A stretch of 38,764 bases of DNA from a virus (lineage: Duplodnaviria > Heunggongvirae > Uroviricota > Caudoviricetes): the IMG/VR virus record IMGVR_UViG_2718218171_000001; one strand, given 5' to 3'. The position numbers and the translations under genes were made by a program. The notes beneath the pieces are model-generated. The model had not been told where the DNA came from. It did no database searches and worked only from the letters and a program-made list of their open reading frames with translations. Each line of letters opens with the position of its first letter. Positions within the stretch are counted from its first letter, which is position 1. This document shows, piece by piece, positions 3,539 through 3,975 of this stretch.

Positions 3539-3585
3539 TTTGCTGCTCCTCATCATATCGACCCTGCAAGGCCGATTAGTTTCTC

Positions 3586-3720
3586 CACAAAACAGAGAAG
3601 AACACCTGCGGTGGCAGCCGCCCGGATGGATTGGGTTATGAGCCCGTCGTCCGGTGATGCTCTTCTCTGTTTTGTAAAAAGGACGGTACCAGCCGGAAGC
3701 AAGGGTACAAACTGGTACCG
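3586..3720. repeat. Nested inverted repeats in a GC-rich 430-bp non-coding region (candidate structured RNA or regulatory element)
   Basis: Perfect 14-bp inverted repeat caaaacagagaaga (3588-3601) / tcttctctgttttg (3661-3674) around a 59-nt GC-rich loop; second 9-bp stem cggtaccag (3684-3692) / ctggtaccg (3712-3720); three GGTGCC direct repeats at 3748-3770. Confidence 0.5.
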
Positions 3721-3975
3721 CCAGGACTACACACAGCATAAAGTTGTGGTGCCGGGTGCCTCCCGGTGCCTGGCGAAGGTTGCACACCAGACGGGTGGGT
3801 ATCCACAGAAGGTCGACTGTCAGCCTCAACCTTAACCCGCGTGCGCTGAGCCGCATTCACCACAACGCCAAGGATTCTCTTTGGTTGAAAATACTTAGCT
3901 GTTATGTGCCTGTCTTTTCACCACTTCAGGCTCGGTGGTATCCTTTTAAGCCCGTATACATAAAAGGAAAATCAA

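What the first reader, a model, noticed from the sequence alone, without database searches (positions are those of the whole stretch)
3539..3975. GC-rich, highly structured 430-bp non-coding segment inside the early-left transcription unit (candidate structured RNA or regulatory element)
Between the YfdP-like gene and the next upstream genes lies a region without a convincing ORF but with a perfect 14-bp inverted repeat enclosing a 59-nt GC-rich loop, a second 9-bp stem-loop, and three GGTGCC direct repeats. All track ORFs here are Arg/Pro/Gly/Cys-rich translations of GC-rich DNA. A long structured untranslated segment in an early operon could be an sRNA, an RNA antitermination element, a processing site or a protein-binding array.
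Basis: seen in the sequence. Interest (0 to 1): 0.55.

Follow-up and report, generated by a model that had tools for sequence, protein, structure and literature searches.

The report
Prophage small-RNA cassette upstream of yfdP
The GC-rich gap is a real non-coding RNA cassette, most likely a roughly 190-nt prophage small RNA with its own terminator followed by a long hairpin; it is a relative of the known sRNAs STnc100, PasD and sRNA-17, so it is a new member of a known kind rather than something unprecedented.

Summary
Window 3539-3975 is GC-rich, non-coding and strongly structured. It is a cassette of separate elements, read on the minus strand (the early-left direction):
- a 33-nt motif shared with lambda and P22 (3939-3907);
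- a 130-nt pseudoknotted RNA domain (3869-3740);
- a 20-nt spacer;
- an intrinsic terminator (3722-3676);
- an 89-nt long hairpin (3675-3587) in the yfdP leader.

The domain matches Rfam STnc100 below threshold (38.7 vs 47 bits). It scores 93 bits with a model I built from 28 sequences, the window's own among them. The "GGTGCC repeats" are hairpin H4 plus the closing helix.

In 65 aligned sequences, 96.6% of pair cells are paired and 20 of 25 pairs change on both sides. A pseudoknot is kept through more than 20 different complementary sequences. ORFs over the region are frame-broken in phage ST64B.

The allele at the same locus in mEp460-type prophages is sRNA-17 of E. coli K1, a 193-nt RNA mapped by RACE and northern blot, with identical ends. 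The window therefore probably makes a ~191-nt sRNA (3867 to 3677).

The same domain also sits as an mRNA leader before dicB and P1 tciA. Its molecular role is unknown.

The parts
3907..3939 (-). Small conserved motif ACCACCGAGCCUGAAGUGGUGAAAAGACAGGCA. It can be drawn as a hairpin CCAC/GUGG (3938-3935 / 3924-3921), or as an H-type pseudoknot with a second stem GCCUG/CAGGC (3931-3927 / 3912-3908) and an A-rich third loop. It marks the 5' edge of the cassette. Function unknown.
   Evidence: It is 94% identical to lambda 34394-34428 (between sieB and orf28/ral) and to P22. There are 136 instances in 78 variants in the loci I hold, followed by about 80 different downstream sequences. It has no Rfam family. 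Folded alone, it is not more stable than shuffles (z -0.57).
3870..3906 (-). Spacer between the small motif and the RNA domain. It holds a weak -10-like hexamer GAGAAT (3879-3874), 6 nt before the predicted 5' end. There is no recognisable -35.
   Evidence: The promoter scan finds no minus-strand site here with at least 9 of 12 matches. STnc100-proper copies have TTGACT/TTGATT ... TAAAAG at the equivalent place. ST64B has GAGAAC here instead.
3677..3867 (-). Predicted small RNA of about 191 nt: the domain, the spacer and the terminator.
   Evidence: The ends are inferred from sRNA-17 of E. coli K1, which is 193 nt by 5'/3' RACE and northern blot (PMC7719688). Its 5' primer CGTTGTGGTGAATGCG and its 3' terminator are identical in the window. 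The Rfam STnc100 model aligns over its full length to 3888-3673.
3740..3869 (-). Conserved pseudoknotted RNA domain, made of:
- closing helix P1: 3866-3858 / 3751-3743;
- AAU: 3857-3855;
- hairpin H1: 3854-3852 / 3841-3839;
- pseudoknot 5' strand AAGGUUG: 3833-3827;
- variable insert: 3826-3793;
- hairpin H3: 3792-3785 / 3775-3768, whose loop holds the pseudoknot 3' strand CAACCUU (3782-3776);
- hairpin H4: CCGGG-AGGCA-CCCGG, 3766-3752.
   Evidence: Rfam STnc100 scores 38.7 bits, E 1e-6. My own model R1 scores 93 bits; the window sequence was one of the 28 it was built from. Covariation in 65 distinct aligned sequences: 96.6% of cells paired, 20 of 25 pairs changed on both sides, 0 of 500 shuffles as good, and about 38% paired when partners are slid. 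The pseudoknot is kept through more than 20 different sequence pairs. The minimum-energy fold of the window sequence reproduces P1, H3 and H4.
3723..3742 (-). Single-stranded spacer UUUAUGCUGUGUGUAGUCCU. It is a candidate target-pairing (seed) region.
   Evidence: It is unpaired in the folds. GCUGUGUG(U/A)AGUC is kept in ST64B although the overall identity is 78%. It is replaced by AGCCACUGCUU in the sRNA-17 allele. No complementary site exists inside the window. Its role as a seed is inference.
3676..3722 (-). Intrinsic (Rho-independent) terminator: a 13-bp stem (3722-3710 / 3694-3682), a 15-nt loop, then CUUUUU (3681-3676).
   Evidence: Folds (z -2.5). In ST64B the stem has an entirely different sequence (GUCGGCGUC.../...GACGCCGAC) and a 20-nt longer loop, but the hairpin and the U-run are kept. 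It is identical in mEp460, where it forms the 3' end of sRNA-17.
3587..3675 (-). Long hairpin module in the yfdP leader. It has a 25-bp outer stem (15 bp perfect) enclosing two small hairpins. One of these carries the conserved apical motif ACGGGCUCAUAACCCAAUCCA. In read-through RNA the stem can extend to include the terminator's U-run (3680-3676 with 3586-3582). It is a candidate RNase III processing or stability element.
   Evidence: z -8.0. The outer and inner stems covary between the window, ST64B, locus L221 and P1-like phages (GAGAAGA/UCUUCUC vs GAAAAGA/UCUUUUC; CCGGA/UCCGG vs CCUGUA/UACAGG vs CGUA/UACG), while the apical motif is conserved. In P1-like phages the same module lies directly upstream of the domain rather than downstream. 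RNase III cleavage was not tested.
3539..3586 (-). Remainder of the yfdP 5' leader, with the Shine-Dalgarno sequence GAGGAG (3551-3546). The yfdP coding sequence is 3538-3176. The cassette's 3' recombination boundary lies at GGAGAAAC(U/C)AA (3585-3575).
   Evidence: Sequence read directly. After this boundary, four different downstream genes follow in related phages. SfV orf32 and mEp460 gp35 start at the same ATG.

Best explanation
The segment is a non-coding RNA cassette transcribed leftward, on the minus strand.

Shown here:
- It holds a 130-nt RNA domain: a closing helix, three hairpins and a pseudoknot. This domain belongs to the same fold family as the prophage sRNAs STnc100 and PasD.
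- The domain is followed by a short unpaired spacer and a genuine intrinsic terminator.
- A separate long hairpin then lies in the leader of yfdP.

Inferred:
- The unit from C3867 to the U-run at 3677 is released as a stable small RNA of about 191 nt. This is the allelic counterpart of sRNA-17 of E. coli K1.
- The RNA arises either from a weak promoter of its own or by processing of the PL transcript.
- It acts in trans as an Hfq-type base-pairing regulator, with the structured domain as a stable 5' body and the spacer as the likely pairing region.
- In cis, its terminator limits read-through into yfdP-yfdQ-yfdR in the lysogen.
- In transcripts that do read through, the long hairpin is a double-stranded processing or stabilising site, most likely for RNase III, that sets the 5' end of the yfdP message.
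For: Homology:
- The Rfam STnc100 model aligns over its full length (1-206) at 3888-3673 minus, E 1e-6.
- My model R1 gives 93 bits for the window (one of its 28 seed sequences), 26.7 bits for mEp460, and 28 bits for the PasD position in phage 2B8.

Structure:
- 96.6% of pair cells are paired, and 20 of 25 pairs change on both sides. No shuffle out of 500 does as well, and slid controls give about 38%.
- The pseudoknot is kept through more than 20 different complementary pairs.

Terminator:
- The hairpin plus U-run is retained in ST64B with a completely different stem sequence.
- 68 of 76 STnc100-type copies are likewise followed by a terminator within about 60 nt.

Expression of the allele:
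- sRNA-17 is 193 nt by RACE and northern blot. Its published 5' primer and its terminator are identical to the window sequence.
- Its replacement by a cassette raised yfdP reads about 95-fold.

Family behaviour:
- STnc100 copies are expressed, and one was confirmed by northern blot (PMC5331693).
- EcOnc27, which partially overlaps an STnc100 copy, is described as an Hfq-binding sRNA (PMC12711010). PasD was found by Hfq RIL-seq and its stability depends on Hfq (PMC8550237).

Not coding:
- Frame-breaking indels in ST64B and no Pfam hit.
Against: - There are no expression data for this allele.
- No convincing sigma-70 promoter lies upstream, and the weak -10 is not kept in ST64B. The 5' end may therefore be a processing product, or the RNA may exist only as part of the PL transcript.
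- Targets are unknown, and the interior and spacer differ from sRNA-17, so its regulon cannot be transferred.
- In the clade with the same H1 sequence, about 60 distinct instances are not sRNA-like. There the domain is followed 24-36 nt later by a Shine-Dalgarno sequence and a start codon (dicB, tciA and others). An sRNA-only model does not explain this.
- The yfdP increase in the sRNA-17 mutant may be a polar effect of the resistance cassette. The deletion primers leave the terminator in place.
- RNase III cleavage of the long hairpin is untested.
Confidence: 0.6

Rival explanations
1. The domain is mainly a cis-acting leader module rather than a trans-acting sRNA. It would be a compact, closed, pseudoknotted fold that phages place in long untranslated stretches of operons. 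There it could protect the downstream message, block RNase E or Rho entry, or bind a host or phage factor that tunes expression of the next gene. The terminated ~190-nt RNA would then be a by-product.
For: - About 60 distinct instances with the window's H1 sequence lie 24-36 nt upstream of a Shine-Dalgarno sequence and start codon, with no terminator between.
- One such position is directly after the DicF terminator and before dicB; others are before tciA and a protease gene in P1-like phages.
- In several of these the closing helix is 20-21 bp long.
- The long hairpin module accompanies the domain in either order.
- Invariant single-stranded nucleotides (GUGAAU, loop AGGCA) suggest a specific binding partner.
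Against: - In the window, the domain is separated from yfdP by a terminator.
- STnc100-proper copies are stand-alone units with a promoter and a terminator.
- The family's RNAs have been found on Hfq and in RNA-RNA chimeras.
- No partner or mechanism is known.
Confidence: 0.3
2. It is a riboswitch-like or protein-dependent attenuator. The domain would be a sensor whose folding decides whether the terminator at 3722-3676 forms, and so gates yfdP and the downstream early-left genes.
For: - A conserved, pseudoknotted, helix-closed domain sits immediately before an intrinsic terminator and a gene.
- In the window, the H3 3' arm CGCCAGG could pair with CCUGGCG at the foot of the terminator (read from the sequence).
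Against: - Across 29 different terminators that follow the domain, there is no more complementarity between the terminator's 5' arm and the domain than in shuffles (mean fraction of shuffles reaching the observed run, 0.58).
- The candidate alternative pairing is interrupted in ST64B.
- Many copies have no terminator at all.
Confidence: 0.07
3. It is a processive antitermination RNA of the HK022 put kind. It would let RNA polymerase read through the early-left terminators in a phage that has no N gene.
For: - No N-like protein is evident among the first PL genes. These are a 73-aa ClpX-zinc-finger-like protein and a 91-aa protein of unknown function.
- Several terminators lie in the early-left unit.
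Against: - put RNA is a ~70-nt two-stem V-shaped RNA placed just downstream of PL or PR (PMC9378689). This domain is 130 nt, helix-closed and pseudoknotted, and lies about 870 nt from the PL candidate.
- Most STnc100-type copies are followed at once by a terminator, and expressed copies are reported at about 160-210 nt.
- In ST64B and in the dicBF operon a terminator lies upstream of the domain.
Confidence: 0.04
4. The region encodes small proteins: the 74-aa and 80-aa ORFs on the + strand, the 49-aa and 75-aa ORFs on the minus strand, or an N-terminally extended 226-aa YfdP.
For: - The ORFs exist.
- ORF 3611-3835 matches phrog_3651 (E 8e-50), ORF 3553-3702 matches phrog_33599 (E 1e-15), and ORF 3744-3986 matches phrog_36251 weakly (E 9e-6).
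- Some phage records annotate hypothetical proteins here.
- The yfdP frame stays open for 105 codons upstream of its ATG.
Against: - The window and ST64B differ by indels of 2, 22, 1 and 1 nt inside these ORFs, so none keeps its frame.
- Conservation follows RNA helices, with compensatory changes.
- There is no Pfam match.
- PHROG families are built from called ORFs and would form over any conserved DNA.
- SfV, mEp460, ST64B and RefSeq all start YfdP at the downstream ATG.
Confidence: 0.02
5. It is a DNA-level element: a protein-binding repeat array, a recombination or boundary site, or a small mobile inverted-repeat element.
For: - The cassette's parts recombine as modules with sharp boundaries.
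- The inverted repeat has perfect 15-bp ends.
Against: - Compensatory changes that keep pairing, G-U pairs that work only in RNA, and a pseudoknot all argue for selection on a single strand.
- The element is always in the same orientation as the surrounding operon.
- The median is one place per E. coli genome and the maximum five, which is not a dispersed repeat.
Confidence: 0.03

Closest known systems
sRNA-17 of E. coli K1 RS218 (Front Microbiol 2020, PMC7719688)
   Same: - Same locus: the early-left intergenic region directly upstream of yfdP in an SfV/mEp460-type prophage.
- Same first 17 nt at the RACE-mapped 5' end (CGUUGUGGUGAAUGCG).
- Same closing-helix 3' arm, same terminator and same long hairpin downstream.
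- Similar predicted length (191 vs 193 nt).
   Different: - The interior of the domain (H1, pseudoknot, H3, H4) and the spacer before the terminator have different sequences.
- mEp460 scores only 26.7 bits with my model, against 93 for the window, and it has no Rfam hit at E <= 0.05.
- That paper reported no Rfam homologue and listed partial matches as 'degenerative sRNA-17'.
- The ArcA-regulated promoter region of sRNA-17 is not shared with the window.
STnc100 (Rfam RF02076; EcOnc27/sRNA103 in EHEC overlaps one copy)
   Same: - Same domain architecture and the same invariant motifs (GUGAAU; CACCGGGAGGCACCCGGCACCA).
- A terminator follows shortly after.
- It is multi-copy and prophage-borne.
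   Different: - The window scores below Rfam's gathering score (38.7 vs 47).
- The H1 hairpin sequence is different: GCGGCUNAGCGCACGCGG instead of CCCCCUGUGCGGAGGGGC, with compensating changes at two pairs.
- STnc100-proper copies have a clear promoter-like sequence and are reported in late regions, for example 75 nt after stx2B. The window copy lies in the early-left unit without a clear promoter.
PasD1/PasD2 of EPEC (PMC8550237; bioRxiv 10.64898/2026.05.13.724894)
   Same: That preprint reports PasD as structurally related to STnc100. My model finds the PasD position in phage 2B8 with the closing helix, H1, H3 and a pseudoknot (AAUGAUC/GAUCAUU).
   Different: - In PasD the H4 hairpin is degenerate.
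- PasD lies next to the Q antiterminator and sialate esterase genes in the late region.
- Sequence similarity to the window is too low for BLAST to detect.
The untranslated stretch between DicF and dicB in Qin-type prophages
   Same: It carries the same domain with the same H1 sequence, lies in an early-left operon, and sits directly after an sRNA terminator.
   Different: - There the domain is a leader: its extended 21-bp closing helix ends 3 nt before the dicB Shine-Dalgarno sequence, and no terminator follows.
- None of the papers I searched describes it.
Double-stranded RNase III processing hairpins in lambdoid early and late transcripts (lambda N leader, sib, late leader)
   Same: A long, nearly perfect stem in an untranslated part of a phage operon, placed just before a gene. 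This comparison rests on my own knowledge of lambda.
   Different: - This hairpin has a conserved apical motif and a conserved partnership with the pseudoknotted domain.
- Cleavage is untested.
- My model does not detect the lambda late leader.
HK022 put antiterminator RNA
   Same: It is a protein-independent structured RNA in the early operons of a lambdoid phage that lacks N.
   Different: Its fold, size and position are all different. No evidence here points to antitermination.

Membership tests
STnc100 (Rfam RF02076) | Reaches the curated Rfam gathering score (47 bits) | tested here: not met
   38.7 bits, E 1.1e-6 in a 1-kb search. Nothing in the whole window reaches the gathering threshold.
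STnc100 (Rfam RF02076) | Full-length alignment with the invariant motifs GUGAAU and CACCGGGAGGCACCCGGCACCA | tested here: met
   Model positions 1-206 are aligned and both motifs are identical.
STnc100 (Rfam RF02076) | Shared secondary structure (closing helix, H1, H3, H4) kept by compensatory changes | tested here: met
   96.6% of cells paired; 20 of 25 pairs changed on both sides; 0 of 500 shuffles as good; about 38% paired in slid controls. The alignment was fitted to my model, which favours the structure.
STnc100 (Rfam RF02076) | Own promoter immediately upstream of the closing helix | tested here: inconclusive
   No minus-strand site with at least 9 of 12 matches; only a weak GAGAAT, which is not kept in ST64B. 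STnc100-proper copies have TTGACT/TTGATT ... TAAAAG.
STnc100 (Rfam RF02076) | Intrinsic terminator shortly after the domain | tested here: met
   13-bp stem plus CUUUUU, 20 nt after the closing helix. 68 of 76 STnc100-type copies show the same arrangement.
STnc100 (Rfam RF02076) | Expressed as a discrete Hfq-associated RNA | not testable with these tools
   Only literature on other copies is available.
sRNA-17 (E. coli K1) | Same genomic locus, and the same 5' end and terminator sequences | tested here: met
   The published full-length and RACE primers match mEp460. The window is identical to mEp460 at the 5' 17 nt, the closing-helix 3' arm and the terminator.
sRNA-17 (E. coli K1) | Sequence identity over the whole 193 nt | tested here: not met
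   The interior of the domain and the spacer are replaced. My model gives 26.7 bits for mEp460 against 93 for the window.
PasD | Location beside the Q antiterminator, LpxR and sialate esterase genes in the late region | tested here: not met
   The window copy lies between the PL region and yfdP. The candidate PasD in phage 2B8 lies just upstream of the esterase gene.
Intrinsic (Rho-independent) terminator | GC-rich hairpin followed directly by a U-run, on the transcribed strand | tested here: met
   The hairpin and U-run are kept in ST64B with a wholly different stem sequence.
RNase III processing hairpin | About 20 bp or more of near-continuous double-stranded RNA | tested here: met
   25-bp stem with 15 perfect pairs, z -8.0. 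The stems covary among relatives.
RNase III processing hairpin | Cleavage that depends on RNase III | not testable with these tools
   No data exist for this locus.
HK022 put antiterminator RNA | ~70-nt two-stem RNA just downstream of PL or PR | tested here: not met
   This is a 130-nt helix-closed pseudoknotted domain about 870 nt from the PL candidate.
Riboswitch or transcription attenuator | Mutually exclusive antiterminator pairing between the sensor domain and the terminator | tested here: not met
   No excess complementarity across 29 distinct terminators (mean shuffle fraction 0.58).
Protein-coding gene (phrog_3651, phrog_33599, phrog_36251) | Reading frame kept in diverged homologues | tested here: not met
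   Indels of 2, 22, 1 and 1 nt against ST64B; no Pfam match.

The most novel reading that the evidence does not exclude
The conserved pseudoknotted domain may not be just the body of a base-pairing sRNA. It may be an autonomous RNA module with a specific molecular partner: a protein, the ribosome, RNA polymerase or a small ligand. Temperate phages of enterobacteria would then deploy it in two ways. As an mRNA leader it sits before dicB, P1 tciA and other genes. Fused to a terminator it forms the released RNAs STnc100, PasD, sRNA-17 and the window copy. Its cloverleaf-like layout is suggestive: a closing helix runs straight into a 5-bp hairpin, and there are two further arms plus a tertiary pairing. 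That, together with the invariant GGAGG-containing loop, would fit mimicry of a cellular RNA. If true, four separately named sRNAs and an unannotated dicB leader are one new class of phage riboregulator.
Probability: 0.2. Interest if true: 0.75.

Novelty: new member of a known kind. Interest (0 to 1): 0.45.

Why it matters
The sequence is common. 2863 of 5426 complete E. coli genomes match part of window 3500-4000, and 1360 match at least 80% of it. No RNA feature was listed under the match in the records shown.

The comparison also links RNAs that were described separately: STnc100, PasD, sRNA-17 and the stretch between DicF and dicB. All share one fold with a covariation-supported pseudoknot that none of the papers I read mentions. 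This raises the question of what the conserved domain binds.

It also flags PHROG families that are probably ORF calls laid over non-coding RNA.

Tried and rejected
- **Riboswitch-type switching.** I searched 29 distinct terminators for complementarity to the domain and found none beyond chance.
- **put-like antitermination.** Architecture and position differ.
- **Coding ORFs.** Rejected by frame-breaking indels, despite the PHROG hits.
- **A relative in lambda's late leader.** The stretch GCTCTTTCCGTTGTGCTGAAT...CAGCACAAC looks similar by eye, but my model does not detect it at E <= 10, so I do not claim it.
- **A second copy in the window.** The hit at 34518-34632 (12.7 bits, E 0.19) lies inside a 194-aa ORF and is treated as chance.
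- **Targets inside the window.** There is no site complementary to the spacer.
- **E. coli K-12.** The CPS-53 yfdP has lost the cassette; only the last ~25 nt before the ATG are shared. K-12 datasets therefore cannot inform on this locus.
- **RNase III in the dicBF operon.** From memory I expected the site to lie in the domain's closing helix. The literature places it 5' of DicF, so this gives no support.
- **Full-text search for the conserved sequences.** It found nothing relevant. A search on sieB/tL1 for the small lambda motif was also unproductive.
- **Records not in the collection.** RS218 and the old EDL933 records were unavailable. sRNA-17 was therefore identified through its published primers and phage mEp460.
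- **tRNA/tmRNA scan.** Nothing found.
- **Pseudoknot register.** One column register for the pseudoknot could not be defined in the alignments. I tested it per sequence with shuffles and mismatched partners instead.
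Full report
**Setting.** Over 3500-4000 the window is 99.8% identical to Shigella phage SfV, and the same stretch occurs in many E. coli prophages. A cI-like repressor gene (4811-5437, minus), a cro-like gene (5535-5735, plus) and a PL-like promoter (4757-4729, minus) show that the leftward early unit is read on the minus strand. On that strand the order is:
- two small genes (4644-4423, a ClpX-zinc-finger-like protein, and 4414-4139);
- an oppositely oriented ORF (3976-4221, plus);
- the region of the finding;
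- yfdP (3538-3176) and a yfdQ-like gene.

**The observation.**
- The inverted repeat has arms 3587-3611 / 3651-3675, with the outer 15 bp perfect around 59 nt.
- The 9-bp stem-loop lies at 3684-3692 / 3712-3720.
- The three GGTGCC copies lie at 3748, 3755 and 3765.
- GC rises to 0.59.
- The stretch folds better than shuffled sequence on both strands, more so on the minus strand (z -4.56 vs -3.21).

**Not coding.** ORFs of 49-80 aa overlap the region, and the yfdP frame happens to stay open 105 codons upstream of its ATG. Three of these ORFs hit PHROG families, none hits Pfam, and some phage records annotate hypothetical proteins here. Aligned to the 78%-identical homologue in Salmonella phage ST64B, the region has indels of 2, 22, 1 and 1 nt inside these ORFs. 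The conserved blocks coincide with RNA helices. I therefore treat the PHROG families as ORF calls over conserved non-coding DNA.

**What the middle part is.**
- At Rfam's gathering thresholds nothing is found in the window.
- A permissive scan aligns the whole STnc100 model (RF02076, positions 1-206) to 3888-3673 on the minus strand, at 38.7 bits against a threshold of 47 (E 1e-6).
- The best-matching stretch is GGCACCGGGAGGCACCCGGCACCAC.
- The same model gives sub-threshold hits to only its central part (positions about 31-147) in ST64B, in P1-like phages SJ46 and RCS47, in a Klebsiella prophage, and directly after DicF in a Qin-like phage.

**Collecting relatives.** One used the window-type H1 sequence and one the STnc100-type. 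From these I extracted 119 distinct domain sequences. All share one layout:
- a closing helix P1;
- AAU;
- a short hairpin H1;
- a 6-9-nt strand that is complementary to the loop of a later hairpin H3;
- a hypervariable insert;
- H3;
- the invariant hairpin H4 (CC[G/U]GG-AGGCA-CC[C/A]GG), which runs without a break into the 3' arm of P1.

**Covariation.** I built a covariance model from 28 diverse sequences, the window's among them, and used it to align 66 matches.
- On that alignment 96.6% of pair cells are standard pairs, and 20 of 25 pairs show changes on both sides.
- None of 500 shuffles reaches any of the five measures. Sliding the partners by 1-3 columns drops pairing to about 38%.
- The alignment was fitted to the model, which favours the structure. 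However, the margin is large, and the minimum-energy fold of the window sequence alone reproduces P1, H3 and H4.
- The pseudoknot could not be put into one column register, so I tested it sequence by sequence.
- 43 of 45 distinct combinations have a 6-9-bp run between the strand after H1 and the H3 loop. More than 20 different sequence pairs achieve this, for example AAGGUUG/CAACCUU in the window, CAGUUAA/UUAACUG, AUCAGCA/UGCUGAU, CUGGUG/CACCGG, UGGUUAU/AUAACCA and UAAUGACUG/UGGUCAUUG.
- The median fraction of loop shuffles reaching the observed run is 0.04. Matched partners average 7.0 bp against 4.8 for partners taken from other members.
- In window coordinates the domain is 3869-3740.

**What follows the domain.** Twenty nucleotides after P1 comes a 13-bp hairpin followed by CUUUUU (3722-3676). 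In ST64B the stem has a completely different sequence and the loop is 20 nt longer, but both the hairpin and the U-run are kept. That is good evidence for a working intrinsic terminator. Among STnc100-type copies, 68 of 76 distinct instances are likewise followed by a terminator within about 60 nt, and many have promoter-like sequences just upstream of P1. These are stand-alone sRNA genes.

**The long hairpin.**
- Relatives in ST64B, in an IMG/VR locus (L221) and in P1-like phages keep the outer and inner stems through compensatory changes. They also conserve an apical motif, ACGGGNUCAUAWCCCAAUC.
- In P1-like phages it lies directly upstream of the domain, sometimes in two tandem hairpin-domain units. 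In the window it lies downstream of the domain and terminator.
- In read-through RNA the stem can extend to take in the terminator's U-run.
- Its length suggests an RNase III substrate. This is inference; cleavage is untested.

**Modularity.**
- Phages mEp460, cdtI and Stx2c share only 3500-3723 with the window: the yfdP start, the long hairpin and the terminator.
- Related IMG/VR loci share the cassette from the small 5' motif to GGAGAAAC(U/C)AA, and then continue into four different genes.
- Aligning the window with mEp460 shows identical P1 arms, terminator and long hairpin, but a replaced domain interior and spacer. My model still detects the mEp460 version at 26.7 bits.

**Link to an experimentally mapped RNA.** A search for yfdP together with sRNA found sRNA-17 of E. 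coli K1 RS218 (PMC7719688).
- It is a 193-nt RNA defined by 5' and 3' RACE and by northern blot. It lies in an mEp460-type prophage and was reported to have no Rfam homologue.
- Its published full-length primers are CGTTGTGGTGAATGCGCAGGCTGATGCGCGAAA (5' end) and AAAAGAGCGGTACCAGCCGGAAGCAAGTGTAC (3' end).
- These are the P1 5' arm plus H1 of the mEp460 domain, and the terminator. sRNA-17 is therefore exactly domain + spacer + terminator.
- The window is identical at the first 17 nt and at the terminator. By homology, this predicts an RNA from C3867 to about 3677, roughly 191 nt.
- In that study, replacing sRNA-17 by a resistance cassette raised yfdP reads about 95-fold, and yfdR also rose.
- This fits a cis barrier function. 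However, the deletion primers leave the terminator in place, so polarity from the cassette is an equally good explanation.

**Other literature.**
- STnc100 is multi-copy in EHEC and expressed, and one copy was confirmed by northern blot (PMC5331693).
- One copy lies 75 nt after stx2B (PMC12370729). It partially overlaps the Hfq-binding sRNA EcOnc27 (PMC12711010).
- A 2026 preprint reports that PasD of EPEC is structurally related to STnc100. My model finds the expected PasD position in phage 2B8 at 28 bits, with P1, H1, H3 and a pseudoknot but a degenerate H4.
- That preprint does not mention sRNA-17, dicB or a pseudoknot.

**What does not fit a pure sRNA picture.** In the clade that shares the window's H1 sequence, about 60 distinct instances have no terminator. 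Instead, a Shine-Dalgarno sequence and start codon follow 24-36 nt after P1.
- The clearest case is the stretch between the DicF terminator and dicB, where P1 extends to 21 bp and ends 3 nt before the dicB ribosome-binding site.
- Others precede tciA and a protease gene in P1-like phages.
- The domain therefore also lives as an mRNA leader. Its invariant unpaired nucleotides suggest a specific partner that is not known.
- I tested the obvious cis model, a terminator/antiterminator switch, and found no support.
- The put antiterminator of HK022 has a different fold and position.

**The small 5' motif.** The 33 nt at 3939-3907 are 94% identical to lambda 34394-34428 (between sieB and orf28/ral) and to P22. 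The motif is widespread and is followed by about 80 different sequences. It can be drawn as a small H-type pseudoknot with an A-rich third loop, but I have no covariation for it. Folded alone, it is unremarkable. It marks the 5' edge of the cassette, and its function is unknown.

**Verdict.** The finding is real and its general reading is right. The region is a new member of a known kind: an allelic variant of sRNA-17 whose body belongs to the STnc100/PasD fold family, followed by a terminator and a conserved long hairpin in the yfdP leader.
- Shown here: the anatomy, the homology, the covariation including the pseudoknot, the terminator's conservation and the absence of a conserved reading frame.
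- Inferred: release as a ~191-nt RNA, Hfq-dependent trans regulation, the barrier role of the terminator and RNase III processing at the long hairpin.
- The most interesting open point is what the conserved domain does, given that it serves both in released sRNAs and in mRNA leaders.

Noticed in passing
window 3907-3939 (minus); lambda J02459 34394-34428; loci L252-L328: A ~33-nt motif, ACCACC(GAG/UCG/GCG)CCUGANGUGG(U/C)(U/G)AAAAG(A)CAGGC, is nearly identical in lambda, P22, Klebsiella and Qin-type phages, and is followed by about 80 different sequences. It can be drawn as an H-type pseudoknot with an A-rich loop. The GAG form goes with AAAAGA and the UCG form with AAAAG. It has no Rfam family.
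   Followed up: partly
locus L007 1493-1702 and about 60 IMG/VR loci (e.g. L020, L036, L086): The stretch between the DicF terminator and the dicB start codon in Qin-type prophages carries the same pseudoknotted domain, closed by a 21-bp helix that ends 3 nt before the dicB Shine-Dalgarno sequence. None of the dicBF papers I read describes it.
   Followed up: partly
loci L005, L008 (P1-like phages SJ46, RCS47), L110, L126: P1-like phages carry tandem units of long hairpin plus domain upstream of tciA and of a serine-protease gene. L110 has three domain hits (two of them diverged, about 38 bits).
   Followed up: partly
window 3611-3835 (+), 3553-3702 (-), 3744-3986 (+): PHROG families phrog_3651, phrog_33599 and phrog_36251 match ORFs that lie over this non-coding RNA region. 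They are probably built from spurious ORF calls.
   Followed up: partly
window 3176-3856 (minus): The yfdP reading frame stays open for 105 codons upstream of its accepted ATG (3538), right through the long hairpin, the terminator and most of the domain. ST64B breaks this frame, so I treat it as coincidence in GC-rich sequence.
   Followed up: yes
window 4423-4644 (minus): The first gene after the PL-like promoter encodes a 73-aa protein with a ClpX-type C4 zinc finger (PF06689, E 1.4e-10). No N-like antiterminator is evident in the early-left unit.
   Followed up: no
window 3976-4221 (+): An 81-aa ORF (phrog_3311) is oriented against the early-left unit. It occupies the position that sieB holds in lambda relative to the small conserved motif, so leftward transcripts would be antisense to it.
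   Followed up: no
window 958-2301: This stretch is partly masked: 719 N in 325 short runs. The 627-aa ORF 1227-3110 and the low GC values there are therefore artefacts of masking.
   Followed up: partly
locus L249 1000-1145 (lambda 44800-44945, between tR' and S): Lambda's late leader has a long hairpin (AAGAGCAUUG.../...CAGUGCUCUU) followed by GCUCUUUCCGUUGUGCUGAAU...CAGCACAAC. By eye this resembles the hairpin-plus-domain arrangement of P1-like phages, but my model does not detect it.
   Followed up: partly
locus L001 7026-7214 (phage SfV): SfV carries isrK and C4 antisense RNA genes above Rfam threshold in its early-right region. The window has no match there, so its early-right region differs from SfV's.
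   Followed up: no
locus L030 about 7040-7170: In one IMG/VR relative, a ~120-nt insert lies between the small motif and the domain. It contains a tRNA-like T-arm sequence (GGTTCGATTCCAG).
   Followed up: no
window 6984-7047; locus L250 5400-5530 (E. coli K-12): Four copies of a 15-nt repeat (TCTGACACGTCAAAA) lie inside the 313-aa ORF 6675-7616 and are probably origin iterons. A fragment of the same repeats is what abuts yfdP in K-12 CPS-53, where the RNA cassette has been lost.
   Followed up: partly
IMG/VR loci L012, L054, L064 and others, upstream of the variant small motif: Two direct repeats of TTGTTGTTGGGGA(T)AACCAG lie between the variant small motif and an oppositely oriented ORF. They may be operator-like sites.
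   Followed up: no
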